Positions 1 through 28,202 of a stretch of DNA of 64,000 nt are shown in pieces. The notes beneath the pieces are model-generated. The model was not told where the DNA came from. It saw only the letters and a program-made list of their open reading frames with translations, and searched no databases. Source of the DNA: Alphaproteobacteria bacterium (GTDB taxonomy: Bacteria > Pseudomonadota > Alphaproteobacteria > Rs-D84); the NCBI GenBank assembly GCA_013316395.1, contig WSMU01000001.1:2393-66392 (forward strand), in the 5' to 3' direction. Both the position numbers and the translations under genes were made by a program. Position 1 is the stretch's first letter; each line of letters opens with the position of its first letter.

Positions 1-1020
1 CTGAAGGATATTCAGGCGGTCGGGAACGAGCTTATTCCGGCGCTTATTCGCCAGTTTGTGCCGGGTGCAAAAATTCATCCGGAAATTCCGCACATCCCCT
101 ATGATGAGGCGATGTTGAAATACGGATGTGACAAGCCTGATTTGCGCAATCCGATTGAAATTTCAGATGTGACGGAAATATTCCGCGGTTCTGATTTTGG
201 TATTTTTGCAAACGCTATTGAAAATGGTGCGGTTGTTCGTGCAATTCCGGCGCCTGCGTCCGCTGATAAACCGCGCAGTTGGTTCGATAAGCTGGGTGAC
301 TATGCGGTAAAGGAACTGGGGCTGGGGGGCTTGGGCTATATTGTTTTCGCAGACGAGGCAAAGGGGCCGGTTGCAAAGAAGCTGGACCAGGAGCGTATTG
401 AAAAATTGCGGGCGATTGCCGGCGATGGTGCGACATTGTTCTTTGTATGCGATGCGCTTGATGCCGCGGCCAAGGCGGCGGGCAAGCTGCGCATCAAACT
501 GGGCCAGGATTTGGGACTGATAGATGAAAAAGAATTCCGCCTGTGCTGGATAGAAGAATTCCCGTTCTATGAAGTTAACGAAGAAACAGGTGCAATTGAT
601 TTCGGACATAATCCGTTTTCGCTGCCGCGTGGTGAACTGGACAAGGATGATCCGCTGTCTATCAAGGCGAACCAGTTTGACATGGTTCTAAACGGTGCCG
701 AAATATGCAGTGGCGGTTTGCGTAACTATAATCCTGAGACAATGGTTCGTGCATTTGAAATTGCCGGCTATGGCGAGGAAGACGTAAAGGCAAAGTTCGG
801 TGGTATGTACGCCGCGTTCCAGTATGGTGCACCGCCCCACGGTGGATGCGCGTTCGGTATTGACCGTCTGGTTCAAATCATGCTGGGCGAGGATAACCTG
901 CGTGCGGTGGTCGCATTCCCGACAAACCAGCGCGGCCAGGATTTGATGCTGGGGTCCCCGCGTGAGGTGACCGAACAGCAACTGCGCGAGGTTCATATAC
1001 AGGTTCGTAAAAAAGGTTAA
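1..1020 (+). CDS. aspS: Aspartyl-tRNA synthetase, C-terminal part (5' end lies outside the window)
   Basis: The frame is open from base 1. The translation carries class II aaRS motif 3 (GAPPHGGCAFGIDRLV) and the AspRS-type insertion domain. The listed ORF 58..1020 is only the part downstream of an internal GTG. Confidence 0.9.
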   Translation: MKDIQAVGNELIPALIRQFVPGAKIHPEIPHIPYDEAMLKYGCDKPDLRNPIEISDVTEIFRGSDFGIFANAIENGAVVRAIPAPASADKPRSWFDKLGDYAVKELGLGGLGYIVFADEAKGPVAKKLDQERIEKLRAIAGDGATLFFVCDALDAAAKAAGKLRIKLGQDLGLIDEKEFRLCWIEEFPFYEVNEETGAIDFGHNPFSLPRGELDKDDPLSIKANQFDMVLNGAEICSGGLRNYNPETMVRAFEIAGYGEEDVKAKFGGMYAAFQYGAPPHGGCAFGIDRLVQIMLGEDNLRAVVAFPTNQRGQDLMLGSPREVTEQQLREVHIQVRKKG

Positions 1021-1132: not shown

Positions 1133-1495
1133 ATGAACCCGCAAATAGAAAAACTGTCCCGGATGTTGAACCTTAGCCCGTATCAGTCCCAGACCCTGGT
1201 GGGGGGCAGCGATAAGTATAATATGTCGCGCCTGGTAAAGCGCGGTGGGCTGCTGTATGCGCCATATAATATGCGTGGCGTGTTTGGGCGGGCGTCTGAT
1301 ATTTTGCGAGGGCGGCGGGCTGATTTGATTGGGTATAACAAAACACTGCTGCGGGGGCAGCGCGGAATAAAATTTTATGCGGCCGGATATCACTGTGTTC
1401 GAATTGGCCGCTTTATGTATTATGCGGATTCAACCGGTGCGGCAATATCACGCCGCGCATTTTTGCGCGGTATAAATACGTGTGACGGTCGTTAA
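1133..1495 (+). CDS. Hypothetical small basic protein (weak call)
   Basis: ATG at 1133 is preceded by GGAGA with an 8-nt spacer. The product is Gly/Arg-rich with no recognisable family. It overlaps the asmA-like gene convergently by 4 bp. Confidence 0.3.
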   Translation: MNPQIEKLSRMLNLSPYQSQTLVGGSDKYNMSRLVKRGGLLYAPYNMRGVFGRASDILRGRRADLIGYNKTLLRGQRGIKFYAAGYHCVRIGRFMYYADSTGAAISRRAFLRGINTCDGR

Positions 1496-3966
1496 AATTT
1501 CGGATGCGTCGCGATGAATTCGCGCATAAATGATGCATCAAAATCATTCATTATTTCCGATAATGAATAACGCCGTGCGCCATCGGGCAGAACCTCGATT
1601 GATATAAGCGCCGGGGCCGGTGATGTACCGCGCAATTTTAATGCAAAGTTTGCGCGCATTGCGCCGTCATTTATTTCCAGTGCACCGGTGGCGTCTGCAT
1701 GGCGCATAGATATAGTCAGCGGTGCCGTTGTTTTGAAATCACGGCCGGCAAATTCACCGGTTACATGCATTTCTTTTAAACGTGACTGGCCGCCGTCTAA
1801 TGCACGGGCGATTGCAAATTCAGCGTTAAAGGTTGTTATACTGTCGGCGGCGGCATAAAAATCATCAACACCGAAACCATAAATATAACCACCGGTGAAA
1901 ACAGCATCGATATCGCCCGCCATATTGTATGCGATATCGTGCGCGATTTTGCCCGATGTTTTGATTTGTGCCTCGCCGGTGATGCGGGCATCGGATACGT
2001 TAAGCGGCATTCGCGATGACAGCAGCATTCCGCTTAGTTTAAAGTTGCTGGCCTGGATGGAAATGTCATATTCTTTTTTATCTTTTGTTATGATAGCCAG
2101 CAGGTTGCCGCGTGCGCTGTCTGTTATGGAGTATGTTTGTGTGTCGGGTTTTAGACTATATACAAAATTGCTGTATTCATCGCCATTGTATATAAGCTTG
2201 TCGGCGCGAAGAGATATGCCAACATTTAATCCAAAGGGCAGCATTATTGGTGCGTCTGTTAAAAATTCCATTTCATCGTAGTTATCAAGAAAAGCCTGGG
2301 ATATAAAGGCATCCAGGTTAATTGTGTCAGTATGCAGCGTTATGTTTTTCCCAGATGCAGTGCCGGTCATCTCATGCCCCAGCGCCCGAATAGTCAGGTT
2401 GGATATCGCATCCCCACGACGCAGGCCCGAGATGAAGTATTCATCATCGGCGATTGCGCGCATATCCATTTTTGGGAACCAGTCGTGCAGGCTGCGGCCT
2501 GATATCACAAAGGCGTCGCCCTGGGTTGTTAGTTCCCAGCGGCCGCTATGCGGTCGGAATGTAACGCGGTCGCCACTAAGTGCGAAATCGCCTATCTCAT
2601 TGCGCATAAATTCCGGGATAAAAGTCATCTCGTCACGCAGCCATGACAATGTTTTATCACGTGCGAATTTAAATTCCGGGCGGACGGCGGGCCCTTCGAT
2701 AAACAGTGTTCCGGCCGCATCCGCAAAGATGAACTTTACAGTGCCGCGTGCCCCAAAATGCGCGATAATATCACGCAGTTCTTCATCGGATGGCATTATT
2801 GCATCGGATTTAACCGATATGACAAACGTATCCCCTTTGACGCTAATTGTTCCATTCATACCGCGGTATGAAAAGTTATCGCATGTCCAAGATTCCGGGG
2901 TGCCGGAAAAGATGCATCTGGCGATGTGATTGTTTATTTTTGTCGATATAGCCAGGTCATGGGCACCCGTTGCGGTAATGCGTCCGCCGGAAATAACAGT
3001 GTCGTCTGCAACGATTTTATTTATCTCCAGCCCGTCTTGTGTTCCTGTCGCCAGAATTATCAAACGGGAAAATTCGCGATTGCCCAGTTTTAAATGCCCG
3101 CGCAGGTTAAGGTTAAAAGATGTTTCATGAATAATCTTGGTTGGATTTAGCAGGAATGAAAAATCAAATGTTGCATCCGGCGAAGATATTTCTATGCTGC
3201 GTCGACCGTCCGGTTCCAGGTCTATGTTACCGGTAAAGTTATTGGCGTGTATGTCTGAAAAGCGAACGCCATAACCGCCGTCCCAATCGAACTTCATTTC
3301 CAGGTCAATTTCGCCCGGAATTTTTGGTTCGTTAAATTCAAACATTTCGTTTATATTATCCGTCTTTAAGGCCATTGTCCCGCGTGCCCCGCCATCGGGT
3401 GTCAGATTGCCGAACACAACCAGATTACTATTTTTATTGGCTACAAAAAATTCATCCCCGTTAAGTGTTATGTCGTATTTATGCTGGCTTGTGCGAACAG
3501 TTGCCTTTAACTCGCCACCCCCGACAAGCCCGTCTATTATCCTATATTCCTTGCCCAGGAAATCCACAGTGCAGTTATGCAATTCTATGTCATAGCGCGG
3601 CGCCACCGGTACCAGGCGCGATATTTTTACATTTGCATCGTATATGCTAATACGGCCGTCCAGATGTGCACCATCCGGATTTAGCAGCGCGCTTAGCGGG
3701 ACGCGAAACGCCGCCGCGCCGATATTACCGTCGGGGACGACTATATCACGGGCAACAATTGTTATGGCACCCAAAAGGCTGAAATGAATATCGCCACGAA
3801 TTGTTGTTATGGCCCCCGTCTGGGCCGCGATTGCAGATTCCAGTTTTGGCTTTAGCCGGTTTAGGGTAAACATCGGCGGAACAACCACGATTGCAATCGC
3901 CAAAAGGGCCATTATGGCGGCGGTTATATAAAGTATTTTGCGGCGGGTTCTGGGTTTTAATGCCAT
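1492..3966 (-). CDS. AsmA-family outer-membrane biogenesis protein
   Basis: N-terminal membrane anchor (MALKPRTRRKILYITAAIMALLAIAIVVV) followed by a large periplasmic beta-rich region typical of AsmA/TamB-like proteins. Start chosen at the internal ATG 3966 just before the anchor; the ORF extends to 4029. Confidence 0.65.
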   Translation of the reverse strand: MALKPRTRRKILYITAAIMALLAIAIVVVPPMFTLNRLKPKLESAIAAQTGAITTIRGDIHFSLLGAITIVARDIVVPDGNIGAAAFRVPLSALLNPDGAHLDGRISIYDANVKISRLVPVAPRYDIELHNCTVDFLGKEYRIIDGLVGGGELKATVRTSQHKYDITLNGDEFFVANKNSNLVVFGNLTPDGGARGTMALKTDNINEMFEFNEPKIPGEIDLEMKFDWDGGYGVRFSDIHANNFTGNIDLEPDGRRSIEISSPDATFDFSFLLNPTKIIHETSFNLNLRGHLKLGNREFSRLIILATGTQDGLEINKIVADDTVISGGRITATGAHDLAISTKINNHIARCIFSGTPESWTCDNFSYRGMNGTISVKGDTFVISVKSDAIMPSDEELRDIIAHFGARGTVKFIFADAAGTLFIEGPAVRPEFKFARDKTLSWLRDEMTFIPEFMRNEIGDFALSGDRVTFRPHSGRWELTTQGDAFVISGRSLHDWFPKMDMRAIADDEYFISGLRRGDAISNLTIRALGHEMTGTASGKNITLHTDTINLDAFISQAFLDNYDEMEFLTDAPIMLPFGLNVGISLRADKLIYNGDEYSNFVYSLKPDTQTYSITDSARGNLLAIITKDKKEYDISIQASNFKLSGMLLSSRMPLNVSDARITGEAQIKTSGKIAHDIAYNMAGDIDAVFTGGYIYGFGVDDFYAAADSITTFNAEFAIARALDGGQSRLKEMHVTGEFAGRDFKTTAPLTISMRHADATGALEINDGAMRANFALKLRGTSPAPALISIEVLPDGARRYSLSEIMNDFDASFMREFIATHPKF

Positions 3967-4015
3967 TTTCTCTTTCCTTGTATTTTTATTATAATGGATT
4001 ATATTAACAATTAAA

Positions 4016-6007
4016 ATGAAAAAGAGCATATTTGATCTTCAGAGTGATTACAAACCCATGGGCGACCAGCCGACCGCGATTGCAGAACTGGCCGGTGGTG
4101 TACGTGATGGCCGTCACAGCCAGGTCTTGCTTGGCGTGACGGGTTCGGGTAAAACCTTTACCATGGCAAACATTATCGCAGAGCTGTCACGACCGGCACT
4201 TATCATGGCACCGAACAAAATTTTGGCGGCGCAGCTGTATACGGAAATGAAATCGTTTTTTCCAAACAATCATGTCGAGTATTTCGTTTCCTACTACGAT
4301 TATTATCAGCCAGAGGCTTATATGCCCACAACCGATACATATATTGACAAGGATGCGGCGATTAACGAGCAACTGGACCGCATGCGGCACAGTGCGACGC
4401 GCGCCATGCTGGAAGAGCGTGATGTGGTTGTGATTTCATCTGTTTCATCTATATACGGTATGGGCAGCCCGGAACAATATTCCGGTATGAAGGTGGTGCT
4501 GAATGCGGGCGACAAAATGGGAATGAAAGACGTAATGCGCGCATTAGTAGATATTCAGTACAAGCGTAATGATACCGCGTTCGAGCGTGGTGATTTTCGT
4601 GTGCGTGGTGATACACTGGATGTGTTCCCGTCGCATGCACTGGACCGTGCGTGGAAGATTTCCTTTTTTGGCGATGAAATAGAAGAGATATGGGAATTTG
4701 ATACCCTAACGGGGGCAAAATTGCATCGGCTGGACCGTATTGCAATTTATCCCAATACGCACTATGCCACGCCAATGCCCAGTATTTTGCAGGCAATCGG
4801 TCAGATAAAAACCGACCTGAAGGAGCGTTTGGAATACTTTCATGAAAACATGAAGTATATAGAGGAGCAGCGCCTGCGCGAGCGTGTGAATTTTGATATA
4901 GAAATGATGGAATCAACGGGGACATGCCGGGGTATTGAAAACTATTCCAGATATCTGTCTGGGCGTGCGCCGGGGATGCCGCCGCCAACATTGTTTGAGT
5001 ATTTGCCCCGCGATGCCGTATTGTTTATTGACGAGAGTCATGTTACCGTTCCCCAGATATCTGCAATGTCACGCGGGGACCGTGCGCGCAAGGAGACGCT
5101 GTCACAGTATGGCTTTCGTCTGCCAGCGTGCATTGATAACCGGCCGCTGACGTTTGAGGAGTGGGATGCCCTGCGCCCGCAGACAATATTTGTATCTGCG
5201 ACACCCGCCGCATGGGAAATGGAGCAGGCCGGCGGTATCGTCGCAGAGCAGGTTATTCGCCCGACAGGTCTGCTGGACCCGGTATGCGAGGTACGCCCCA
5301 CCGCGAACCAGGTTGACGATTTGCTGGACCAGATAAAGAAGACCAAGGGGCGTGTACTGGTTACGACACTTACCAAAAAAATGGCGGAGCAGCTAACCGA
5401 TTATCTTAATGAAAACGGTGTGCGTGCAAAATATCTGCACAGTGATATAGAAACACTCGAGCGTATAGAACTGCTGCGTGATTTGCGCCTGGGGAAATAT
5501 GATGTGCTGGTTGGTATTAACTTGCTGCGCGAGGGGCTGGACGTTCCTGAATGTGAACTGGTTGCGATTATGGATGCCGACAAGGAAGGCTTCCTGCGCT
5601 CGACGCGTTCTCTTATCCAGACAATAGGGCGTGCGGCGCGTAATGCAAACGGGCGTGTTATTTTGTATGCCGATAAAATGACGGATTCAATGAATGCCGC
5701 CCTGACGGAAACGGCACGTCGTCGCGAAAAGCAGATGGCATATAACAAGGCGCACGGTATTACCCCAAAGACTGTTACAAAGGCGGTATTTGCAGAGGTT
5801 GGTGAAAAAGAAGAAAAAACGGATAAAAAACGTCGGTTTGTATATGACAAGGCCGGCGGTGTTATGGATGCGGATTCAATTCGCAAGCAGATAAAAGAGC
5901 TGACGCGGAAGATGCGGCGCGCGGCCGAAGATTTAGAGTTCGAAGAGGCCGGTGAATATCGCGATGCGATAAGAAAGCTGGAAGACGACTTGCTGTTGGT
6001 GGAGTAG
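4016..6007 (+). CDS. uvrB: Excinuclease ABC subunit B
   Basis: Walker A (GVTGSGKTFT), helicase motifs and the C-terminal UvrB/UvrC interaction motif (EFEEAGEYRDAIRKLE); 663 aa, full length. Confidence 0.95.
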   Translation: MKKSIFDLQSDYKPMGDQPTAIAELAGGVRDGRHSQVLLGVTGSGKTFTMANIIAELSRPALIMAPNKILAAQLYTEMKSFFPNNHVEYFVSYYDYYQPEAYMPTTDTYIDKDAAINEQLDRMRHSATRAMLEERDVVVISSVSSIYGMGSPEQYSGMKVVLNAGDKMGMKDVMRALVDIQYKRNDTAFERGDFRVRGDTLDVFPSHALDRAWKISFFGDEIEEIWEFDTLTGAKLHRLDRIAIYPNTHYATPMPSILQAIGQIKTDLKERLEYFHENMKYIEEQRLRERVNFDIEMMESTGTCRGIENYSRYLSGRAPGMPPPTLFEYLPRDAVLFIDESHVTVPQISAMSRGDRARKETLSQYGFRLPACIDNRPLTFEEWDALRPQTIFVSATPAAWEMEQAGGIVAEQVIRPTGLLDPVCEVRPTANQVDDLLDQIKKTKGRVLVTTLTKKMAEQLTDYLNENGVRAKYLHSDIETLERIELLRDLRLGKYDVLVGINLLREGLDVPECELVAIMDADKEGFLRSTRSLIQTIGRAARNANGRVILYADKMTDSMNAALTETARRREKQMAYNKAHGITPKTVTKAVFAEVGEKEEKTDKKRRFVYDKAGGVMDADSIRKQIKELTRKMRRAAEDLEFEEAGEYRDAIRKLEDDLLLVE

Positions 6008-6010: not shown

Positions 6011-6409
6011 ATGACGGAATTTATATCAAACAATGTCGAAGAACTGCGTCGCTGGGCGGCGGATTTTGCCGCTGGGCTGCGTGCGCCGGTAACGGTTGCG
6101 CTGCACGGTGACCTGGGGATGGGCAAGTCAGAGATTGCACGCGCGATAATACAGACACTTTGCGGGGCGGATACCGTTGTCCCCAGTCCGACGTTTACGA
6201 TTGTGCAAAACTATGACGGAATATCACATTTTGATTTGTACCGCGTTGCAGACCCGGACGAGTTGACGGAGATAGGGCTAGATTATGCTATTGAAAATGA
6301 CATCACGCTGATTGAATGGCCTGATGTCGCGGCGGGGATGCTGCCACCGAATACTATTCATGTTTATATAGATGCCCACGGCGATGGACGCCGCATTGTT
6401 GTTAAATAG
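6011..6409 (+). CDS. tsaE: tRNA threonylcarbamoyladenosine biosynthesis protein TsaE
   Basis: P-loop GDLGMGKSEIAR and a YjeE-like size of 132 aa. Confidence 0.8.
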   Translation: MTEFISNNVEELRRWAADFAAGLRAPVTVALHGDLGMGKSEIARAIIQTLCGADTVVPSPTFTIVQNYDGISHFDLYRVADPDELTEIGLDYAIENDITLIEWPDVAAGMLPPNTIHVYIDAHGDGRRIVVK

Positions 6410-6601
6410 TAATTAGATGTGGTGCGATTGGGAAATGGCTCCTGTTGTTTATTGTGGCGATGCGCGCAATAGTTGGTATGCGGATTAACATTCGCGATGC
6501 GAACACTGCGTACACGGACTTTCTGGTCCTGAACCCATATCCCTGCGGATTTACCGGCGCCAGTGCGCGCCAAATCCAAAAACAAGCGATGTTTGCAAAA
6601 A

Positions 6602-6630
6602 AAATCCCGGGCTTTCCGGGATTTATTTTT
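6602..6630. terminator. Bidirectional hairpin between tsaE and rpe
   Basis: AAATCCCGG-GCTT-TCCGGGATTT with an A-run on one side and a T-run on the other. Confidence 0.55.
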
Positions 6631-7306
6631 TTGTACGCGGCAACAGACTTTGCACCGCCAAGGGGAAATCCGGACTGCGCGCCAGATAAGAGCCCGATAC
6701 CAACATATCCGCCCCCGCCAGCCAGCATGCCTGGGCGGTGTCGGCGTTGATGCCGCCATCGACGGATATTGTGAATTTTAAGCCGTATTTCTTGCGCGTT
6801 GCATTTAATACGGAAATCTTTTTTATGGCTTCTTTGTCAAAATGCTGGCCTGCGGCGCCGGGGGCGACCGACATTACCATTACCTCATCTATTTCGCGCA
6901 GTATCGGTTTTAATATTGCAACCGATGAATCCGGATTCAGTGCAACCGCCGCACGGCGGCCGGCGGCCTTTATCTCGCGCAGGGCCACGCGCAGGCCCGA
7001 TGTGTTCGTGGATACAACAACCGTATCCGCACCGGCCGCGATTGCGTCCGCCGCCCAGACGGACGGACTTTCCGTCATTAAGTGAACATGCAGGTGCGCC
7101 GTTGTTTTACTGCGTATGTGCTTAAGCTCCGCTATGCTGCCGGCGATGCGATCAACATAAAAGCCGTCCATTATATCGACATGAATCATCGATATCCCGC
7201 CTGATTTAAACAGTGTATATGTTTCAGGGCGGCGCATGTTAAAGCACAGTGTGCTGGGCATAATGGGGATAAAGCGTGGACGCGCCGGGCGGCGCCCGAT
7301 ATGCAT
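6623..7306 (-). CDS. rpe: Ribulose-phosphate 3-epimerase (C-terminal portion of a fused 593-aa ORF)
   Basis: Rpe motifs are present: IHVDIMDG (metal-binding His/Asp), VMSVAPGAAGQ and SVDGGIN. An N-terminal stretch MPSTLCFNMRRPE aligns with Rpe APSILSADFARLGE. There is no stop codon between this and the upstream FtsA-like part. Confidence 0.75.
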   Translation of the reverse strand: MHIGRRPARPRFIPIMPSTLCFNMRRPETYTLFKSGGISMIHVDIMDGFYVDRIAGSIAELKHIRSKTTAHLHVHLMTESPSVWAADAIAAGADTVVVSTNTSGLRVALREIKAAGRRAAVALNPDSSVAILKPILREIDEVMVMSVAPGAAGQHFDKEAIKKISVLNATRKKYGLKFTISVDGGINADTAQACWLAGADMLVSGSYLARSPDFPLAVQSLLPRTKK

Positions 7307-8404
7307 TACGCGACGCAGCCAATCGCCCCGGCGCCGCCACTTTTCCTGGCGTCGCAGTGCCGCCGCAATACGCGGCTTTTGCATGGACCAGATATGTGCC
7401 GCCAATGCACGGGCCGTTGCGTCATAGGGCAGCTTTTGTACAGGGATTGAAAAAGCGTTTTCAAAAAATTCGGTAACACCGGTCATTTCGGCCCCGCCGC
7501 CGGTCAGCATTATTTTACAAGGTCTATATTTGGCAATGGCCCCCATGGCCGATGATTTTATCAGGCCGGCTATTTCAACCATGCGCGGCAGTACAATTTC
7601 ATTTATATCCGCCCTTGAAAAGTCGTAGGCCGGGTCGGCGGGTGTAAAGCGGTCCATTTCCTGGGGCGCCAGGGATGCGACCGCGCGCTTTATAGTGTCG
7701 GCGGCATCGATGTCTATTTGCATTTTATCCGATATATCGCGCGTGATTTTAGCACCGCCAATCGGTATTTTCTTTAGCGTTACCGGACCGCGGTCCGTCC
7801 AAATGGATGCCGTTGTGAATTCATCCCCCAGGTCTATGAACATTACATTTTCGCGTGCGCGGCGCAATGTTGCGTTTAATAAAAACTGTGGGTCGAAAAA
7901 TCCGGCGGTCTGGATATGGGCGCGACGCATTGCGGCCGTGATTTTATCAAGACGGGCGCGTTCGTAAAATATTGCACCGAATGCAGATATCAGGGCATGG
8001 TCCGTATGGCCAATTGGTGATATTACATTTCGTGCGCCCGGCGTATCATATCGCAGCGGGATTATATGCATGGGATAGAAGCCGTCGGGGGGTGTGATTT
8101 GTGCAATTTGTCCGCGGACATCTGATGCGGTTATTTTATGTTCCCCGCCCCAGTTAGTGCTTTTTGCGGTCATTTCAAAATGGGCCGCGCCAAAGTCCCC
8201 CGTTACATACGCCGCATCAAAATGTGCGCCGATTTGCCGTTCCAGTTCGTCTATGACGGATTTTAAAGCATAGACGGTATCGCGGCTGTCCATTGCAAAT
8301 ATCGCTGATTTATCAATGCGTGCACTGCGTACGCGATGTGCGCATCCGCGCACGCCGGCGGCGCCTATGTCCAGGCACAGAAAAGATGAATCAAACAGGT
8401 TCAT
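7307..8404 (-). CDS. ftsA: Cell-division protein FtsA-like (N-terminal 366 aa of the fused ORF)
   Basis: Actin-like ATPase motifs: LCLDIGAAGVRG (phosphate 1), DLGDEFTTASIW, IMLTGGGAEMTGV. A basic amphipathic tail (WRRRGDWLRRV) follows. ftsQ lies immediately upstream. Confidence 0.7.
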
Positions 8405-8408
8405 TTTT

Positions 8409-9089
8409 TTATTTTACCAATATTCTGGCATCGTCACGCATGTCTATGACCGATATGTCGCGTGATAGCAGGCCGTGCTTTTCATCAAGTACCATAAGCG
8501 TGGCAATCGCCGCGGCTGGGTTATCTTCGGGCAGCATTACCGTTATTCCCCCCAGCGTCTGCATGTTCCAGCGCCGCGATTCTATCCATTCCAGGTAATC
8601 TAGTTTGCCAATCATGTTATGTGCGGATTTTGTTATTTCGGATATATCGGCCGGCAGTGTGCCGCGGAATAGTACGGATGCCGCATCGCGGGTATCTCTG
8701 GGGCGTTTGACTATTGTTCCGTCCGCCGACAGGGGAAAGTATGCCTGGCCGTCGGTCCATTGGGCGACCGCATGATGCATTTCGACCTTTACCTTTAGGT
8801 TGCCATTTGGCATGCGTCGGACCGCGCAATCGCGAACGCCGGGTGTGGCGGCGATGCGTGCGTTTTGGGCGGATAAATCAACACTGTATGTATGTGTGCC
8901 CGGTGCCACCGCGGCGGCCGCCGCAACCGGGTTTAAATCCGGGCCGCGCATGTCGGCGGATATTGATATTGTTCGCACACGCGATACCGTGCCATGACCC
9001 ATTGTTGTCATGATTATGCGCACGGCAAAGTAGGTTGCCAGAATAATTGACAGGGCAAAAAACAGCCAAAACCAGATAGAACGTTTCAT
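8409..9089 (-). CDS. ftsQ: Cell-division protein FtsQ
   Basis: N-terminal TM helix followed by POTRA/FtsQ-like periplasmic domains (KVKVEMHHAVAQWTDGQAYF...SADGTIV; C-terminal ISVIDMRDDARILV). Confidence 0.75.
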   Translation of the reverse strand: MKRSIWFWLFFALSIILATYFAVRIIMTTMGHGTVSRVRTISISADMRGPDLNPVAAAAAVAPGTHTYSVDLSAQNARIAATPGVRDCAVRRMPNGNLKVKVEMHHAVAQWTDGQAYFPLSADGTIVKRPRDTRDAASVLFRGTLPADISEITKSAHNMIGKLDYLEWIESRRWNMQTLGGITVMLPEDNPAAAIATLMVLDEKHGLLSRDISVIDMRDDARILVK

Positions 9090-9141
9090 ACCACGGATTA
9101 TAGCACAATTTTAACCGATAAAAAAGGGGGGCTGTAAAAAA

Positions 9142-9537
9142 TTACATTGCACGCAACAGATATCCGCGACGGAACATACATTTGCGGTATGAGCCCACAG
9201 ATTTTGAAGTCGTATTACGTGGTACGGACATCAGGCTGCGCTGGCCGACATCCTTGTATTCGTTTGATTGAAATGTCACCCACAGGCCGTCCCAGTCAGG
9301 CATCATCCCACTTTGGTTCGGGGCAATAAGCTTTGCCAAGCGTGAGCGCGGCAGATAAGAAGGCTTGGTTATACCCAGGCATGCCTTGTGGTCGCGAACA
9401 AACTGTTCTGTGGTTACGGCCTCATTCTCCCAGTTTAGGACAGTGGCGTTGTCAATGCTGCCGCGGTTCGGCGACGAGCATGCCGCCAGGCACATACAAA
9501 AAATTGCAGATATGCATTTTATTCTCATGTTATGCAT
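9142..9537 (-). CDS. Hypothetical lipoprotein
   Basis: Signal peptide with lipobox LAACSS; no family recognised. Confidence 0.45.
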   Translation of the reverse strand: MHNMRIKCISAIFCMCLAACSSPNRGSIDNATVLNWENEAVTTEQFVRDHKACLGITKPSYLPRSRLAKLIAPNQSGMMPDWDGLWVTFQSNEYKDVGQRSLMSVPRNTTSKSVGSYRKCMFRRGYLLRAM

Positions 9538-9601
9538 TATAATTTAATTGCGTTAGGGGGGCAATACTTTTTATAATGAATTAAATGGCAAGGGGGCGCC
9601 A

Positions 9602-9922
9602 ATGGCGATAACTGTTCAGAATTTTATAAAAATGGCAAACTTTTACAACCAGATGACGATGATGATGTCGGCTATCTGTGTGCAAAAGGGCGGCATCGCT
9701 ATTGAAAATTATGTGGGGCGTTTCTTTGCGGCCGATACTTTGGAATTTGTTTACGAATACGGTCGCCGTTTGGTAGAGGCCGGAAATGTATCGCCGGATG
9801 TGCGTGCGCTGGTGGAACGCTTTCGCATGCAGTATGAGCGTGTGCGGGATTTAACCACACCTTCACAGCGGCCGATTTACGAAATGACGTTGGAAGAATT
9901 TGAAAAGCTGATGAACATATAG
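9602..9922 (+). CDS. Hypothetical protein
   Basis: 106-aa ORF co-oriented with the downstream lipoprotein/lolCDE genes; no recognisable motif. Confidence 0.4.
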   Translation: MAITVQNFIKMANFYNQMTMMMSAICVQKGGIAIENYVGRFFAADTLEFVYEYGRRLVEAGNVSPDVRALVERFRMQYERVRDLTTPSQRPIYEMTLEEFEKLMNI

Positions 9923-9934
9923 CGGGGGCAGGGA

Positions 9935-11266
9935 ATGAAAAAAAATAGATTTATTTATATGTTAGCGGCCGCGGTGATATGTGCGGCCTGTACCCAGCGC
10001 GCATCCCGCGAGCAGGTGCCGCAATTTGATACCGTCACCGTTGTCGATAATCTGGTTATTGATGAAAACTCGGTGCCGATTTTTCCGAAAAAAGCGGCGC
10101 TGACGACAGATACGGCGCGCAGATTTTCAATTGAACTGCCCAAGCGGTGCAGTGTGGACTGGAATAACCAGAGTGTTGTTTCCGTTGTCCCGGAAGAGAA
10201 GATAGAAGTTGTTCGTCTGGATATGGGTGATGAGTTGCCCGATTTGCAGGTTTCGGATTATGAGTTTAAGCAACTGACGGTAAAGCAGGCGCTGGACAAG
10301 CTGCTGAGCGGTACGGACATTGCCGTCGTTGAAGACGACCAGGGTATAGAAAAAATAACGGGTGCCATTCAATCGGGACGCTTAAGCGATGCGGTTGAGT
10401 TAATGGCAAAAATGGGACGTACATATTTTTCCTATGATGCGGCGGCGGCCGAGTTGCATTTGACGCATCGCGCCAAGTGGATGATAAAAATGCCGCGCGA
10501 TGAAACGATAATAATGGCCCTGCTGGATGCGATGCATGGTGCCGATATGCGTAATCTGCTGGTTAACTGGCAGGACAAGACGGTCGTATTCGAAGGCAAC
10601 TATCAGACAGAACGCGAAGTGGCGCGCATCATTGCCGATATATCGTCTAAGAAATACATGATTGCATGGGATATCGATGTGTATCGTGTGTATCCAAAGA
10701 CAGATAATCCTATTATCTGGATGAATTTGCTGCCGGCATTTGGGGATAAGAATGTTCGTATGTCGATACCGGGTGTTGTTGGGCGTGCGCTGGTTGTCGG
10801 GCCAGAGATTAACACAAAAACACTGCAGGAGTTTTTATCACAGCAGTCAAATGTTGTTTTAATATCACAGGGTACTTTTTCTGTTCCAAACGGATGGCAG
10901 TCGCGTTTTGATATAGGGCAATGCGGCAAGGAAGAACGTCTGGAGACGGACCTGATTATAGGTGCAACCGGAAAATATGGTAATTTTGGCGGCTATAAAA
11001 AAATCGATGCAAAGATTGTGTTGCGTACCAGCCAGGGTGAACTATCATCGTTTACGATACCGTCTAGCATTGGTGACAACTATGTCATAATCGGTATTCC
11101 GACGCACTCTTTTGTTACAACGCCGGAAACACTGATAAGTCCGTTTGCGGAACTGGTTGTCTTTATGTCGCCGCGCATAATATCTATTGTTGATGCCGCC
11201 GATGTGCCGGATAATTCGTTTACACCGCTGGTGGGGGATGCACTGCGTGCGTTTTTGGCAGAATAA
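9935..11266 (+). CDS. Hypothetical lipoprotein, 443 aa, with a secretin-like C-terminal tail
   Basis: Lipobox ICAAC. The C-terminus (TIPSSIGDNYVIIGIP...ELVVFMSPRII) loosely resembles the end of secretin domains. It sits directly upstream of lolC/E-lolD. Confidence 0.5.
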   Translation: MKKNRFIYMLAAAVICAACTQRASREQVPQFDTVTVVDNLVIDENSVPIFPKKAALTTDTARRFSIELPKRCSVDWNNQSVVSVVPEEKIEVVRLDMGDELPDLQVSDYEFKQLTVKQALDKLLSGTDIAVVEDDQGIEKITGAIQSGRLSDAVELMAKMGRTYFSYDAAAAELHLTHRAKWMIKMPRDETIIMALLDAMHGADMRNLLVNWQDKTVVFEGNYQTEREVARIIADISSKKYMIAWDIDVYRVYPKTDNPIIWMNLLPAFGDKNVRMSIPGVVGRALVVGPEINTKTLQEFLSQQSNVVLISQGTFSVPNGWQSRFDIGQCGKEERLETDLIIGATGKYGNFGGYKKIDAKIVLRTSQGELSSFTIPSSIGDNYVIIGIPTHSFVTTPETLISPFAELVVFMSPRIISIVDAADVPDNSFTPLVGDALRAFLAE

Positions 11267-11278: not shown

Positions 11279-12535
11279 ATGTTGTTTTCACGGCTGGAAA
11301 GAAAAATTGCTTTTCGATATATGTGGGCTAAGAAACGCGGATTTGGTTCCGTGATATCTTGGGTATCACTGGTTGGAATCGCGCTGGGGGTGGCGACCCT
11401 GATTGTTGTAATGTCGGTTATGGCCGGATTTCATGACACACTGCTGAATAGAATTGTTGGAATGAACGGGCATGTTGTTGTCTATCATCAGGATGGGGCA
11501 ATCGCAGATTATGATTTCCTGATAGATAAAATGCGCCAGAACAAGGTTGTAGCCGCCCGCGTGACCGATATTGTGCCAATCGCAGAAGGTCAGGTAATGG
11601 CCACCGCCGGCGGAAATAATACAGGGGCCATGATACGTGGAATACGTATGACCGACCTGCAGGCAAAGGTGGATAAGGGGACAAAAATATACGGTCGGCC
11701 GATTGCGGAAATAAAAGAAGGTGAACTGGTTGCAGGGGCTAATTTGACCCGGGCCTTGAATGTTACAATGGGGGACAAGATATCCCTGGTGTCGGCGGCG
11801 GGTGCAACACCAACGCCGTTTGGTACAATGCCGCGGATTATGGCGTATCCGGTGAAGTCTTCTTTCTTTATGGGAATGTATGAATACGACTCGGGGTATA
11901 TATTTATGCCGCTGGAAACATCGCAGAAGTATTTAAATATCGGAAATGCCGTAACGCATATAGACCTGTTCCTGGATGACCCGGAAGATACGCGTGCGGT
12001 TGCGGATGCATTGGCGCGCTTGTTGCCGGATGGTTTTGTTGTTCGTGACTGGCGTGATTTGAACCGCGGTTTTGTCGGCGCCCTGCAGGTGGAATCGAAC
12101 GTAATGTTTTTAATATTGATGCTGATAGTAATTGTCGCCGCATTTAATATAGTTTCAAGTCTGGTTATGCTGGTAAAGGATAAATCCAAAGATATTGCGG
12201 TACTGCGTACGTTTGGGGTGTCGCGCCGTTCTATGATGAAGATATTCATATTATCCGGGACCAGTATCGGTGTAATAGGTGCCCTTGTTGGAACCGTGTT
12301 GGGTGTTGTTGTCGCGATATACATAGAGCCCATACGCAAGGCGGTTCAGTTCATGACAGGTCGCGACCTGTTTCCGGCGGATTTGTATTATTTGTCGGAA
12401 CTGCCGTCAAAGTTGTCACCGGCCACGGTATTTGGGATTGCGGCGCTGGCGGTGGCGCTGGCTTTTGTGGCGACACTGTATCCCGCATGGAAGGCCGCAT
12501 CCACAGACCCTGTTGACGTACTAAGGAACGAATAA
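11279..12535 (+). CDS. Lipoprotein-releasing system permease, LolC/LolE (FtsX/MacB) family
   Basis: TM1, a large periplasmic domain, then three C-terminal TM helices; the N-terminus KIAFRYMWAKKRGFGSVISWVSLVGIALGVATLIVVMSVMAGF is typical of LolC/E. Confidence 0.8.
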   Translation: MLFSRLERKIAFRYMWAKKRGFGSVISWVSLVGIALGVATLIVVMSVMAGFHDTLLNRIVGMNGHVVVYHQDGAIADYDFLIDKMRQNKVVAARVTDIVPIAEGQVMATAGGNNTGAMIRGIRMTDLQAKVDKGTKIYGRPIAEIKEGELVAGANLTRALNVTMGDKISLVSAAGATPTPFGTMPRIMAYPVKSSFFMGMYEYDSGYIFMPLETSQKYLNIGNAVTHIDLFLDDPEDTRAVADALARLLPDGFVVRDWRDLNRGFVGALQVESNVMFLILMLIVIVAAFNIVSSLVMLVKDKSKDIAVLRTFGVSRRSMMKIFILSGTSIGVIGALVGTVLGVVVAIYIEPIRKAVQFMTGRDLFPADLYYLSELPSKLSPATVFGIAALAVALAFVATLYPAWKAASTDPVDVLRNE

Positions 12536-13245
12536 TGGCGAACATATTAAATTCTTTGTCAAAGGTATCACGCGGCGATGTTGTGTTGTCTGTGCGCGAT
12601 ATTAAAAAGACATTTATGGAAGGCGGCCAGCCGTTGCATATTTTGCGTGGTGGTGGTTTTGATTTGCACCGCGGCGAGATAATTGCACTGGTCGGACAGT
12701 CGGGCAGTGGAAAGTCAACTTTGCTGCAGTGTGTGGGACTGTTGGACCGTCCGTCGGCGGGCAGTATTTTAATAGGCGGAATCGCAGCCCAAAAGATGGA
12801 TGATGAAATGCGAACCGCAATGCGTCGCGATAAGATAGGCTTTGTATATCAGCGACATAATCTGTTGGGGGATTTTACGGCGCTGGAAAATGTGGTGCTG
12901 CCGATGTTGACGCGCGGTGTGGCAGAGGCCGATGCAAATATTCGGGCGTTAAAGCTGTTGCGGGCGGCAAATGTGGCGCATCGCGCATCACATCTGCCGG
13001 GCGAGATGTCCGGCGGCGAGCAGCAGCGAACCGCCGTTGCGCGCGCATTGGCAAACGGGCCAGAGATTTTATTAGCAGACGAGCCGACCGGCAGCCTGGA
13101 CCCGGCGCATGCCGCGGCTGTATTTGACCTGCTGCTTGACTTGGTGCGAAAGAATAAGATGGCGATGCTGTTTGTAACACATGATATGAATTTGGCCGCA
13201 CGCGCCGACAGAACAATTACAATAAAAGACGGAATAGTTAAATAA
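12535..13245 (+). CDS. lolD: Lipoprotein-releasing system ATP-binding protein LolD
   Basis: ABC Walker A GQSGSGKST, signature LSGGEQQR, Walker B ILLADEPT. Its start codon overlaps the permease stop (TAATG). Confidence 0.85.
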   Translation: MANILNSLSKVSRGDVVLSVRDIKKTFMEGGQPLHILRGGGFDLHRGEIIALVGQSGSGKSTLLQCVGLLDRPSAGSILIGGIAAQKMDDEMRTAMRRDKIGFVYQRHNLLGDFTALENVVLPMLTRGVAEADANIRALKLLRAANVAHRASHLPGEMSGGEQQRTAVARALANGPEILLADEPTGSLDPAHAAAVFDLLLDLVRKNKMAMLFVTHDMNLAARADRTITIKDGIVK

Positions 13246-13270: not shown

Positions 13271-14014
13271 ATGGTAAAACAAAATACTACAAAGGTGGCA
13301 TGCTGTTCTCGGCGCCAGAAAATCTGGGGTATTATTGCATTGGCGGGGTTGTTTGCATGCGGACTAATGGTGGGGCTTGCCTTTAATGCCGGGGACCGTA
13401 GTTCAACAGTTGAACTGGCGGGTCACACAAATGACACAGAGCCCGATACAGCCGACAAGGAAACCTGTGAGGTAATAGAAGATTTTCTGTTGCGTCGAAT
13501 TAACCCCATTGATTCCGACCAGGTGGCCGCGCATAGTATGAATGTTGAAATATATCAGATACTGATAGAAAACGGATGTCCGGAAAATTCTGAAAAATAT
13601 CAGGCACTGATGCAGCAGGAATCTGCGATATTGGATATCTTAATCAACAGACAGATGCCTGAAAATTCTCAGACATGTTCGGAAATTCAATCCCTGCTGA
13701 TGCAGCAATTACCAAATGGTAATTTGAATGACAGCCAAACTCGCATCGAACGTGCAAAAATCTATGCTAACTTGTCCGAGCGCGGATGTCCTGAAAATTC
13801 GCAGCAGTATGCGGAACTGGCGGCGAAAGAATTGGAAATTGCCCGCGCTCTGCGTGATGACTACTTTAACCATAATGAAACACTTGAAGTGGTTGAAACC
13901 TACAAGCGCCTAGAGATGAAACAAGCCGCGGCGGACGTATTGGACAAGGTTCAAAAGCTGACCGACCCGGCGATTGACTTTATTATTCAAGTACAGAAGA
14001 TAATAGAAGAATAA
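13271..14014 (+). CDS. Membrane-anchored hypothetical protein with three ~38-aa (G/R)CPENS repeats
   Basis: N-terminal TM helix (IWGIIALAGLFACGLMVGLAF). Repeats are NGCPENSEKYQALMQQE, RQMPENSQTCSEIQSLLMQQ and RGCPENSQQYAELAAKE. Confidence 0.5.
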   Translation: MVKQNTTKVACCSRRQKIWGIIALAGLFACGLMVGLAFNAGDRSSTVELAGHTNDTEPDTADKETCEVIEDFLLRRINPIDSDQVAAHSMNVEIYQILIENGCPENSEKYQALMQQESAILDILINRQMPENSQTCSEIQSLLMQQLPNGNLNDSQTRIERAKIYANLSERGCPENSQQYAELAAKELEIARALRDDYFNHNETLEVVETYKRLEMKQAAADVLDKVQKLTDPAIDFIIQVQKIIEE

Positions 14015-14017
14015 AAG

Positions 14018-24401: not shown

Positions 24402-24413
24402 AAAGGTGCATAT

Positions 24414-26437: not shown

Positions 26438-26445
26438 ATTCCGAC

Positions 26446-28130: not shown

Positions 28131-28202
28131 TTGTATTCCTATTTATTTAATATATGTATATAATAAACGTAAAGTCCCACTTTTTCAATATAGGAGTGTA
28201 GA

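What the first reader, a model, noticed from the sequence alone, without database searches (positions are those of the whole stretch)
6623..8404. FtsA and ribulose-phosphate 3-epimerase encoded as one uninterrupted 593-aa reading frame
The minus-strand ORF begins as a convincing FtsA directly downstream of ftsQ. It continues with no stop codon through a basic amphipathic tail (WRRRGDWLRRV) into a complete Rpe, whose N-terminal substrate-binding stretch (MPSTLCFNMRRPE, aligning to APSILSADF) and HVDIMDG and DGGIN motifs are all present. Either a stop codon has been lost, giving a genuine FtsA-Rpe fusion, or rpe is translated from an internal start inside the ftsA 3' extension, or the assembly has an error. 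ftsZ, which normally follows ftsA, is absent from the locus, so the dcw cluster is fragmented here.
Basis: seen in the sequence. Interest (0 to 1): 0.55.

Follow-up and report, generated by a model that had tools for sequence, protein, structure and literature searches.

The report
Conserved natural FtsA–Rpe fusion protein
In a whole lineage of small-genome gut bacteria, the cell-division protein FtsA and the sugar-metabolism enzyme ribulose-phosphate 3-epimerase are encoded as a single protein; this is not a sequencing error, and nothing in the searchable literature describes it.

Summary
Window 6623..8404 (-) is one 593-aa ORF, 4 nt downstream of ftsQ. It has four parts:
- a divergent but complete FtsA actin fold (residues 1-341);
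- a long amphipathic helix (343-367);
- a short disordered basic tether (368-380);
- a complete Rpe TIM barrel (381-593) with all metal-binding and catalytic residues.

Assembly error is excluded. Four independent assemblies carry an identical gene. The same uninterrupted ~590-aa ORF, always just after ftsQ and never near ftsZ, is found in 61 of 62 species-level genomes (the 62nd is cut by its contig end). These belong to Candidatus Enterousia and relatives (GTDB order Rs-D84, genomes under 1 Mb), and full-length two-domain relatives reach down to about 29% identity.

An internal start for Rpe is not a conserved feature. Met367 is specific to this window. The Met382 codon is TTA, GCN or TAC in 22 of 62 species.

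FtsA, linker and Rpe are all under purifying selection (omega 0.08, 0.15 and 0.04).

The best reading is a genuine, ancient two-domain protein that holds Rpe at the membrane through FtsA's retained membrane-targeting helix.

Two AT-rich relatives keep the Rpe half as open coding sequence although its catalytic residues are gone. This hints at a non-catalytic role.

I found no literature description. I rate it a new variant of known kinds.

The parts
8409..9089 (-). ftsQ (226 aa). Its stop lies 4 nt upstream of the fusion gene's ATG, so it is probably the first gene of a two-gene operon.
   Evidence: Pfam FtsQ_DivIB_C, E 6.8e-8. An ftsQ homologue lies 0-98 nt upstream of the fusion in 62 of 62 related genome loci.
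7382..8404 (-). FtsA domain, residues 1-341: actin-like ATPase fold with FtsA-type subdomains. The nucleotide-binding motifs are kept: DIG (D12, G14), DLG (D191, G193) and GGG (302-304).
   Evidence: Pfam PF14450 at 48 bits, above its cutoff. TIGR01174 over residues 26-323 at 84.5 bits, below its 175.85 cutoff. The AF2 model matches FtsA structures 1e4g, 4a2a, 7q6f and 7q6d at TM 0.64-0.73, against 0.52-0.64 for PilM. The motif residues are invariant in 20 homologues. dN/dS is 0.08.
7613..7666 (-). Nearly invariant, clade-specific loop in the FtsA 2B region, residues 247-264 (P-x-EMDRF-x-PAD-x-AY-x-FSR). The model has low confidence here. It may be a partner-binding site.
   Evidence: Invariant columns P247, E249-F253, P255-D257, A259, Y260 and F262-R264 in alignment A1. 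pLDDT is below 50 for residues 249-261.
7304..7378 (-). Linker helix, residues 343-367, Arg-rich and amphipathic. Its end, DWLRRVM, corresponds to the C-terminal membrane-targeting helix of canonical FtsA, which ends ...SWLRKEF in E. coli (that sequence is recalled from memory).
   Evidence: DSSP helix 343-367 with pLDDT about 73-81. The highest hydrophobic moment in the whole protein lies just past the helix's C-terminal end (0.91 for window 362-375), and windows inside the helix (353-369) score 0.56-0.60, against 0.62 for the E. coli FtsA targeting helix. W339 and R352 are invariant.
7265..7303 (-). Disordered polybasic tether, residues 368-380 (HIGRRPARPRFIP), joining the helix to the first beta-strand of Rpe.
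   Evidence: pLDDT is below 50 for residues 370-376. Across 58 species the whole linker is 38-44 aa (median 39), has a median net charge of +10, and its last 14 residues hold a median of 7 K/R/H and 0 D/E. dN/dS is 0.15.
7304..7306 (-). In-frame ATG for Met367, a candidate internal start. It is specific to this species.
   Evidence: The position is T, F or L in the other 19 aligned homologues. The upstream sequence GATTGGCTGCGTCGCGTA has no SD-like motif.
7259..7261 (-). In-frame ATG for Met382, the residue that aligns to the Ala or Ser before the PS of the Rpe N-terminal motif. It is a candidate internal start but is not conserved as a start codon.
   Evidence: Codon counts across the window and 58 loci: ATG 28, TTA 17, TTG 7, CTG 2, GCN 4, TAC 1; three further loci that the motif search missed also show Met at this position. 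The upstream sequence CCACGCTTTATCCCCATT has no SD-like motif.
6626..7264 (-). Rpe domain, residues 381-593: a complete (beta/alpha)8 barrel. Metal and catalytic residues H408, D410, H441 and D549 are present, as are the Met cushion (M412, M443, M511), the PG..GQ loop (515-520) and the phosphate-binding GS (571-572).
   Evidence: Pfam PF00834 at 144.5 bits. NF004076 at 162.6 bits against a cutoff of 165, and TIGR01163 at 152.7 against 212.6. phmmer hits 2FLI at E 1.4e-34, and the 1RPX alignment starts at residue 381. Foldseek gives TM 0.91 to 2FLI. dN/dS is 0.04, and mean pairwise identity is 0.69, against 0.52 for the FtsA half.
6623..6625 (-). TAA stop codon of the fusion gene.
6602..6624 (.). 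Strong bidirectional intrinsic terminator (AAATCCCGG-AAAG-CCCGGGATTT followed by a T-run) directly after the stop. It lies between the fusion gene and the convergent tsaE.
   Evidence: 9-10 pairs, 5 of them G-C, with T-runs on both strands.

Best explanation
This is a genuine, ancient gene fusion, translated as one 593-aa cytoplasmic protein. It consists of a full FtsA, the amphipathic membrane-targeting helix that normally ends FtsA, a short polybasic tether, and a complete, catalytically competent ribulose-phosphate 3-epimerase. It forms a two-gene unit with ftsQ that ends at a strong terminator. The fusion arose in the common ancestor of the reduced-genome gut Alphaproteobacteria around Candidatus Enterousia (GTDB order Rs-D84) and related termite-gut lineages, and selection has kept it since. 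Shown here: the ORF is real and conserved, both folds are intact, the functional residues are kept, all three segments are under purifying selection, and there is no conserved internal start. Inferred: the FtsA part is the cell's divisome FtsA; the now-internal helix plus basic tract still binds the inner membrane; the Rpe barrel is therefore held within a few nanometres of the membrane on FtsA polymers; and it is probably the cell's only Rpe, serving the non-oxidative pentose-phosphate steps. The most economical origin is a fusion immediately after the last residues of the FtsA targeting helix, where a stop codon was lost or replaced, during genome compaction.
For: ORF and domains. Reality of the sequence: the exact protein is indexed in 65 blocks of independent assemblies (22 contigs read), and four loci match the gene with 0 mismatches. 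Conservation: more than 120 clusters at 64-99% identity are all 589-596 aa with both Pfam domains. 61 of 62 species-representative genome loci have an uninterrupted ORF, and L061 is cut by its contig end. 26 representative clusters at 50% identity span the junction, and 19 of them are essentially full length (542-623 aa), with identity down to 29%. Distant members share the same gene neighbourhood. ftsQ lies directly upstream in 62 of 62 loci. The two apparently split gene calls are artefacts: one is a scaffold N-gap with duplicated sequence, the other a single in-frame stop on a contig at 2x coverage. There is no conserved internal start. Selection: omega is 0.08 for FtsA, 0.15 for the linker and 0.04 for Rpe over 10 independent close pairs, and linker dS is not depressed. 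Structure: pLDDT is 82, with FtsA fold 1-341, helix 343-367, disorder 368-380 and barrel 381-593; Foldseek matches FtsA at TM about 0.7 and Rpe at TM 0.91. Linker: its length is constant at 38-44 aa, its median net charge is +10, and its hydrophobic moment equals or exceeds that of the E. coli FtsA targeting helix. Genome context: Enterousia and Rs-D84 genomes are 0.75-1.0 Mb and encode the non-oxidative pentose-phosphate steps except transaldolase (PMC12306168). One MAG from that paper, 125_22-69, is locus L017 and carries the fusion.
Against: There is no protein-level evidence, so translation as one chain, membrane binding and Rpe activity all remain inferred. The FtsA half is very divergent: it is below the TIGR01174 equivalog cutoff and matches PDB FtsA sequences only at E about 5e-5. 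I could not check whole genomes for a second ftsA or rpe, or for ftsZ. In this species two in-frame ATGs (Met367, Met382) lie just before the Rpe barrel, and a promoter-like match lies about 250 nt upstream of them (7536-7509), so an additional free Rpe cannot be excluded. Some distant family members (P0139, P0143, P0144, P0146) have short linkers without an obvious amphipathic helix, so membrane tethering through the linker may not be universal. A pTM of 0.60 means the relative position of the two domains is not predicted.
Confidence: 0.78

Rival explanations
1. The two proteins are made separately from one ORF: Rpe is translated from an internal start (Met367 or Met382), possibly from an internal transcript, so the fusion frame is only a compact overlap.
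For: In the window two in-frame ATGs sit 15 and 0 residues before the Rpe N-terminal motif. A gene caller started a 209-aa Rpe exactly at the Met382 equivalent when the upstream frame was broken. A sigma-70-like match (TTGCCA-16-AATAAT) lies at 7536-7509.
Against: Met367 is not conserved. The Met382 position is TTA (17), GCN (4) or TAC (1) in 22 of 62 species, none of which can initiate translation. Neither ATG has an SD-like or A-rich leader, although 24 of 48 genes in the window have an SD-like motif. Promoter-like matches in the region are at chance level, 7 found against 5.3 +/- 2.1 expected. Synonymous divergence in the linker is not markedly reduced, so there is no sign of an embedded signal. 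Every linker length change across species keeps the frame.
Confidence: 0.1
2. The fusion is translated as one chain and then cut in the basic, disordered tether, which releases free Rpe and a normal FtsA ending in its membrane-targeting helix.
For: The 368-380 segment is disordered, exposed and rich in Arg/Lys and Pro, so it would be accessible to proteases. Cleavage there would restore the canonical FtsA C-terminus.
Against: No conserved cleavage motif was found, since the tether sequence varies apart from its charge. There is no obvious reason for selection to hold the linker at such a constant length (38-44 aa) if it is only cut. AT-rich relatives keep a catalytically dead Rpe half in frame, which is hard to explain if the product is meant to be a free enzyme.
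Confidence: 0.1
3. Assembly or sequencing error: a missing stop codon or an indel around 7300-7340 has joined two ordinary adjacent genes.
For: None found. Only two low-quality contigs show split calls.
Against: The 1782-nt gene is identical in four independent assemblies from different samples, and the exact protein is indexed in 65 blocks of the collection. The fusion is intact in 61 of 62 other species and in full-length relatives at 29-88% identity. The split calls come from a scaffold gap and a nonsense change on a 2x-coverage contig, and in neither does the reading frame shift.
Confidence: 0.01
4. The FtsA-like half is not the divisome FtsA. It is a degenerate membrane anchor or scaffold (or a PilM-like paralogue) whose only role is to place Rpe at the membrane.
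For: The FtsA half is below the NCBIfam equivalog cutoff and also gives weak PilM and MreB hits. ftsZ is not adjacent in any locus.
Against: The gene always lies directly after ftsQ. Foldseek ranks FtsA structures above PilM. The nucleotide-binding motifs are invariant. Omega is 0.08. Genomes under 1 Mb are unlikely to carry a second ftsA (inference).
Confidence: 0.07

Closest known systems
Canonical bacterial FtsA (E. coli, Vibrio and Thermotoga maritima structures 7Q6D, 7Q6F, 1E4G, 4A2A)
   Same: Actin-like fold with FtsA-type subdomains (TM 0.64-0.73). Nucleotide-binding motifs are kept. The gene lies directly after ftsQ. An amphipathic helix follows the core, and its last residues, DWLRRVM, resemble the E. 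coli C-terminal ...SWLRKEF (the E. coli sequence is recalled from memory).
   Different: Sequence identity is only about 14-18%, and the match is below the TIGR01174 cutoff. The core is shorter (about 341 aa). ftsZ does not follow. The membrane-targeting helix is internal, not C-terminal, and is followed by a 213-aa enzyme domain. A clade-specific invariant loop sits in the 2B region.
Stand-alone ribulose-phosphate 3-epimerase (S. pyogenes 2FLI, potato chloroplast 1RPX, human 3OVP)
   Same: Complete TIM barrel (TM 0.85-0.91). The His/Asp/His/Asp metal site, Met cushion, PG..GQ loop and phosphate-binding GS are all conserved.
   Different: It has no free N-terminus, because its first beta-strand follows directly from the FtsA tether. 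Identity to any stand-alone Rpe representative is at most about 41%. Scores fall just below or below the NCBIfam Rpe cutoffs. In two AT-rich relatives the domain persists without its catalytic residues.
Metabolic enzymes that moonlight as cell-division regulators (Caulobacter GdhZ and KidO, B. subtilis UgtP, E. coli OpgH; cited from general knowledge, not tested here)
   Same: A central-metabolism enzyme is physically linked to the FtsZ/FtsA machinery. Two of these examples, GdhZ and KidO, come from an alphaproteobacterium (Caulobacter).
   Different: Those enzymes are separate proteins that bind FtsZ reversibly according to substrate. Here the enzyme is covalently and permanently attached to FtsA, and no regulatory effect has been shown.
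Rosetta-stone gene fusions in reduced genomes (a general phenomenon)
   Same: Two housekeeping genes have merged into one ORF in a lineage with genomes under 1 Mb. A low-complexity linker joins the two halves.
   Different: The partners have no known functional link. The fusion is very old (members down to about 29% identity) and kept under strong purifying selection, so it is not a sporadic, lineage-restricted accident.

Membership tests
FtsA (cell-division actin homologue) | Sequence match to curated FtsA models above their thresholds | tested here: inconclusive
   Pfam PF14450 scores 48.4 bits, above its gathering score of 31.8. NCBIfam equivalog TIGR01174 scores 84.5 bits, below its 175.85 cutoff, although the alignment is collinear over residues 26-323. 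PDB FtsA sequences match only at E about 5e-5.
FtsA (cell-division actin homologue) | Actin-like two-lobed ATPase fold with FtsA subdomain arrangement | tested here: met
   The AF2 model (pLDDT 82) gives FtsA structures as its top 19 Foldseek PDB hits (probability 1.00, TM 0.64-0.73 over about 380 columns). PilM scores lower, at 0.52-0.64.
FtsA (cell-division actin homologue) | Conserved nucleotide-binding motifs (DxG phosphate 1, DxG phosphate 2, GGG adenosine) | tested here: met
   D12, G14, D191, G302 and G303 are invariant, and G193 and G304 nearly invariant, in 20 homologues. They are kept in most of the 19 deep representatives.
FtsA (cell-division actin homologue) | Gene located in the dcw cluster between ftsQ and ftsZ | tested here: inconclusive
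   ftsQ lies directly upstream in the window and in 62 of 62 related loci. No ftsZ is found in the 64-kb window or within 6 kb in any locus.
FtsA (cell-division actin homologue) | C-terminal amphipathic membrane-targeting helix | tested here: inconclusive
   A predicted amphipathic helix (343-367) has a hydrophobic moment at least as high as the E. coli targeting helix. However, it is internal, not C-terminal, and membrane binding was not tested.
FtsA (cell-division actin homologue) | Binds the FtsZ C-terminal peptide and recruits late divisome proteins | not testable with these tools
   This needs biochemistry or localisation. FtsZ of this organism was not found in the available sequence.
Ribulose-phosphate 3-epimerase (Rpe) | Sequence match to curated Rpe models | tested here: inconclusive
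   Pfam PF00834 scores 144.5 bits, far above its 21.1 cutoff. NCBIfam NF004076 scores 162.6 against a cutoff of 165, and TIGR01163 scores 152.7 against 212.6, so both are below cutoff. phmmer hits 14 PDB Rpe-family sequences (13 Rpe and one D-allulose-6-phosphate 3-epimerase), the best at E 1.4e-34.
Ribulose-phosphate 3-epimerase (Rpe) | Complete (beta/alpha)8 barrel | tested here: met
   Foldseek gives TM 0.91 and rmsd 2.0 A to 2FLI over 212 columns. The alignment to 1RPX begins at residue 381, so the first strand is present.
Ribulose-phosphate 3-epimerase (Rpe) | Metal-binding and catalytic His-x-Asp, His, Asp-Gly-Gly, plus phosphate-binding loops | tested here: met
   H408, D410, H441, D549, G550, G551, P515, G516, G519, Q520, G571 and S572 are invariant in alignment A1. 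They align to the equivalent residues of 2FLI and 1RPX. All four metal-binding/catalytic residues are kept in 17 of 19 deep representatives.
Ribulose-phosphate 3-epimerase (Rpe) | Ru5P to Xu5P epimerase activity | not testable with these tools
   This needs an enzyme assay or complementation.

The most novel reading that the evidence does not exclude
The Rpe barrel has become a working part of the division machinery, not a passenger. It could act as an oligomerisation or spacing module for membrane-bound FtsA, or as a pentose-phosphate sensor that couples division to carbon supply. On this reading its catalytic activity is dispensable. In at least two AT-rich lineages with identical or closely similar gene neighbourhoods (P0138, P0142), the His/Asp metal site, the PG..GQ loop and the phosphate-binding GS are replaced. 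Even so, the roughly 210-codon Rpe half stays open in genomes of about 24% GC, where 22-25 in-frame stops would be expected by chance. P0142 also still has its FtsA nucleotide-binding motifs.
Probability: 0.2. Interest if true: 0.8.

Novelty: new variant of a known kind. Interest (0 to 1): 0.58.

Why it matters
FtsA is the membrane anchor and organiser of the bacterial division ring, and its free C-terminal amphipathic helix is regarded as a defining functional element. Here an entire order of uncultured, reduced-genome gut bacteria, common in human, livestock, bird and termite gut metagenomes, has buried that helix inside the chain. It has also permanently attached a central pentose-phosphate enzyme to it, under strong purifying selection. 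This is a natural experiment on three questions:
- how much cargo FtsA can carry;
- whether an internal amphipathic helix is enough for membrane targeting;
- whether metabolism and division can be physically coupled, as the separate Caulobacter regulators GdhZ and KidO suggest.

It also matters for annotation. Public records name these proteins only "ribulose-phosphate 3-epimerase" or "hypothetical protein", so ftsA looks absent from these genomes in automated surveys.

Tried and rejected
- **Assembly error:** rejected.
- **Split versions:** I looked for genuine split versions among the representative hits. P0134 (an Rpe-only call starting at the Met382 equivalent) and P0137 (an FtsA-only call) both turned out to be artefacts. 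L085 is a scaffold with 10 Ns and a duplicated segment. L086 has one in-frame stop on a 2.15x-coverage contig.
- **Internal start:** I tested conservation of the start codon, the SD-like motif and synonymous-site constraint, and found no support.
- **Internal promoter or terminator near the junction:** the pattern scan is at chance level.
- **TAATG at 7304-7308:** I considered that the TAA, read in another frame and overlapping the Met367 ATG, might be a relic stop/start overlap. I dropped this because Met367 is not conserved and the FtsA frame is continuous through the targeting helix.
- **Literature:** the term sets (FtsA, ribulose-phosphate 3-epimerase, fusion), (FtsA, Rpe, fused), Enterousia and Rs-D84 gave no description of the fusion. 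The one genome paper on the clade mentions neither FtsA nor FtsZ, and no supplements are held for it.
- **Not achieved:** I did not find ftsZ, a second ftsA or a second rpe for this organism, because only 64 kb plus 6-10 kb flanks were accessible.
Full report
**1. Observation**

The window holds a single minus-strand ORF, 6623..8404, of 593 aa with an ATG start. It begins 4 nt after the stop of the upstream ORF 8409..9089.
- Pfam places an FtsA domain (PF14450, residues 189-323, 48 bits) and a ribulose-phosphate 3-epimerase domain (PF00834, residues 394-574, 144.5 bits) in the same chain. The upstream ORF is FtsQ.
- NCBIfam aligns the ftsA equivalog model collinearly over residues 26-323, at 84.5 bits and below its cutoff. 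It aligns Rpe models over 394-587.
- The C-terminal 215 residues hit 14 solved Rpe-family sequences (13 Rpe and one D-allulose-6-phosphate 3-epimerase), the best being 2FLI at E 1.4e-34. The alignment to potato Rpe 1RPX begins at fusion residue 381 (IMPSTLCFNM against VSPSILSANF) and covers HVDIMDG, HVHLM, PG..GQ, VDGG and GS.
- The N-terminal 378 residues match solved FtsA sequences only weakly, at E about 5e-5.
The only correction is that the first internal Met is residue 367 (ATG 7306..7304).
- No FtsZ signature occurs in any frame of the 64 kb. Pfam annotation of 40 further ORFs found ftsK, a xerC/D-like recombinase gene, lptF/G, secDF, recA, mutL and a glycosyltransferase cluster. It found no ftsZ, no second ftsA or rpe, and no other pentose-phosphate gene.

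**2. The sequence is real**

The exact 593-aa protein is indexed in 65 blocks of the assembly collection, and 22 contigs were read. Four loci from different samples (two ENA assemblies, two Logan assemblies of different runs) have no mismatch to the window over the 1782-nt gene.

**3. The fusion is conserved**

- A search of 5.8 billion proteins returned more than 120 clusters at 64-99% identity. Nearly all are 589-596 aa and all carry both domains.
- One scan of species-representative genomes returned 62 loci with the two-domain gene. 61 have an uninterrupted ORF: 60 are 588-604 aa and one distant member is 552 aa. The 62nd is cut by its contig end.
- Record titles name Candidatus Enterousia, uncultured Alphaproteobacteria from human, ruminant, horse, bird and rabbit gut, and termite-gut "Rickettsiales bacterium" MAGs.
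- ftsQ lies 0-98 nt upstream in all 62 loci. tsaE lies convergently downstream in 48. No locus has an FtsZ motif within 6 kb.
- An exhaustive HMMER search of 1.84 billion representatives at 50% identity found 26 clusters that span the junction. 19 of them are essentially full length (542-623 aa), with identity down to 29%. After these come only stand-alone Rpe proteins at 41% identity or less.
- Distant members keep a similar neighbourhood. L090/L091 match the window fully, from the MacB-like ABC transporter through ftsQ and the fusion to tsaE, uvrB and asmA. L088 shares the upstream genes, and L087 shares a downstream tsaE.
- The only two "split" gene calls are artefacts: a scaffold gap with duplicated sequence, and a single nonsense change on a 2x-coverage contig. 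The frame is unbroken in both.

**4. Taxon**

A 2025 study places Enterousia in GTDB order Rs-D84. Its genomes are about 0.75-1.0 Mb, it lacks most biosynthetic pathways, and it has the non-oxidative pentose-phosphate steps apart from transaldolase. The paper mentions neither FtsA nor FtsZ nor this fusion (PMC12306168). One of its MAGs, 125_22-69, is locus L017, which carries the fusion.

**5. Anatomy**

An AlphaFold2 model built on 20 homologues (mean pLDDT 82, pTM 0.60) shows four parts:
- an FtsA-type actin fold, residues 1-341;
- a single long helix, 343-367;
- a disordered stretch, 368-380;
- a (beta/alpha)8 barrel, 381-593.

Against the PDB, the top 19 hits are FtsA structures (TM 0.64-0.73). 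PilM scores lower (0.52-0.64). Rpe structures match at TM 0.85-0.91.

The FtsA nucleotide-binding residues and the Rpe metal, catalytic and phosphate-binding residues are invariant or nearly so among 20 homologues.

Hydrophobic moment peaks at the junction of the linker helix and the basic tether. The highest value in the whole protein is 0.91 for window 362-375, and windows inside the helix (353-369) score 0.56-0.60. The E. coli FtsA targeting helix scores 0.62 by the same measure. Across 58 species the linker is 38-44 aa with a median net charge of +10. The helix ends in DWLRRVM, which resembles the C-terminal ...SWLRKEF of E. coli FtsA (recalled from memory). The fusion point therefore lies immediately after the normal end of FtsA.

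**6. One protein or two**

- Met367 is unique to this species.
- The Met382 codon is ATG in 28 of the 59 sequences typed (the window plus 58 loci), and three further loci that the motif search missed also show Met there. It is TTA in 17, an Ala codon in 4 and TAC in 1, and none of these can initiate.
- Neither ATG has an SD-like or A-rich leader, although 24 of 48 genes in the window have an SD-like motif.
- Promoter-like and terminator-like matches in 6300-9700 are at chance level. The exception is a strong bidirectional terminator at 6602-6624, right after the stop.
- Nei-Gojobori estimates on 10 independent close species pairs give omega 0.08 (FtsA), 0.15 (linker) and 0.04 (Rpe). Linker dS (median 0.8) is similar to the flanks (1.0-1.1), so there is no sign of an embedded nucleotide signal.
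- Every change in linker length is in frame.
- The conserved mode of expression is therefore a single polypeptide. A minor internally initiated Rpe in this one species, or cleavage in the tether after translation, cannot be excluded by sequence alone.

**7. Likely mechanism**

Shown: a conserved two-domain protein with both folds and all key residues intact, under purifying selection, in a unit with ftsQ.

Inferred:
- The FtsA half is the divisome FtsA, given its position after ftsQ, its fold, its motifs and a genome too small for paralogues.
- The now-internal amphipathic helix and polybasic tract still bind the inner leaflet of the membrane.
- The Rpe barrel is held on a 13-residue tether at the membrane on FtsA polymers. 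It remains the cell's epimerase, since it is the most conserved part of the protein (mean pairwise identity 0.69 against 0.52 for FtsA).
- The fusion most likely arose by loss or replacement of the ftsA stop codon during genome compaction, after ftsZ had left the locus.

Whether the attachment confers anything beyond economy is unknown.

**8. A hint of more**

Two AT-rich relatives have lost the Rpe metal and catalytic residues. Both loci are about 24-25% GC. One keeps the window's full gene neighbourhood and the other its upstream half.
- P0138 has H408Y, D410T and D549C, and its PG..GQ and GS motifs are degraded.
- P0142 has H408N, H441N and D549Y, a deleted PG..GQ loop, and GS changed to NN.
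- Both still keep the ~210-codon Rpe half free of stops, where shuffled sequence gives 22-25 stops. None of 20,000 shuffles was open.
- P0142 still has its FtsA DxG and GGG motifs. P0138 is identical in contigs from independent samples.

This suggests the barrel may also have a non-catalytic role in the fusion, such as structure or oligomerisation. The evidence is thin: two lineages, and an inference based on alignment.

**9. Comparison with what is known**

The two halves belong to well-known families, and the membership tests are listed separately. What is new is the architecture: FtsA, then an internal targeting helix, then Rpe. Four full-text searches found no paper describing it. Public records call these proteins "ribulose-phosphate 3-epimerase" or "hypothetical protein".

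In concept, the nearest systems are metabolic enzymes that regulate division as separate proteins: GdhZ and KidO in Caulobacter, UgtP in Bacillus, and OpgH in E. coli. These are cited from general knowledge. No regulatory behaviour has been shown here.

**10. Verdict**

The "genuine fusion" reading is supported. The "internal start" reading is not supported as a conserved mechanism. The "assembly error" reading is refuted.

It is a new variant of known kinds. It is of moderate to good interest to cell-division and genome-reduction researchers, and it is directly testable.

Noticed in passing
L090/L091 6001-7770 (P0138) and L088 4568-6295 (P0142): AT-rich relatives (locus GC 0.24-0.25), L090/L091 with the window's full synteny and L088 with its upstream half, keep the FtsA-Rpe ORF intact although the Rpe metal, catalytic and phosphate-binding residues are replaced. 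There are 0 in-frame stops in the Rpe half against 22-25 expected. The Rpe domain looks like a retained pseudoenzyme.
   Followed up: partly
window 7613-7666 (-), residues 247-264: A nearly invariant, clade-specific motif (P-x-EMDRF-x-PAD-x-AY-x-FSR) sits in the FtsA 2B region, where the AF2 model has its lowest confidence. In T. maritima FtsA, the 2B subdomain binds the FtsZ C-terminal peptide (from general knowledge). This could be a partner-binding loop.
   Followed up: no
window 9142-11266 and 13271-14656: A block of conserved genes has no Pfam match: a 131-aa lipoprotein-like ORF on the minus strand, plus 106-aa, 443-aa, 247-aa and 212-aa ORFs. They surround a MacB/FtsX-type ABC transporter (11279-13245). 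The three ORFs nearest ftsQ are syntenic in 55 of 62 loci. Function is unknown.
   Followed up: partly
window 6602-6624: A strong bidirectional intrinsic terminator lies directly after the fusion gene's stop codon, between it and the convergent tsaE (6011-6409).
   Followed up: yes
window 47786-52430 and 55273-58022: Five large ORFs (448, 240, 809, 433 and 478 aa) have no Pfam family at E <= 1e-4. They are candidates for lineage-specific surface or host-interaction proteins in this reduced genome.
   Followed up: no
window 23484-29414: A cluster of six glycosyltransferase or capsule-type genes (Caps_synth, GT2 x3, RgpF-like, GT61) sits next to recA. This is a sizeable investment in surface polysaccharide for a genome of this size.
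   Followed up: no
window 4016-4029: By the longest-ORF rule, the 5' ends of the divergent AsmA-family gene (1492-4029, -) and uvrB (4016-6007, +) overlap by 14 nt. Gene calls in related contigs use a later AsmA start (824 aa), so the overlap probably comes from start-codon choice.
   Followed up: no
L054, L056 (record titles 'uncultured Muribaculaceae bacterium'): Two genome records labelled Muribaculaceae carry the alphaproteobacterial ftsQ-ftsA::rpe locus with the same upstream genes. This suggests mis-binning or mislabelling of those MAGs.
   Followed up: no
P0139, P0143, P0144, P0146 (distant fusions; L065, L087): The most distant fused members have much shorter linkers with no obvious amphipathic helix. 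The internal membrane-targeting helix may therefore not be universal in the fusion family.
   Followed up: partly
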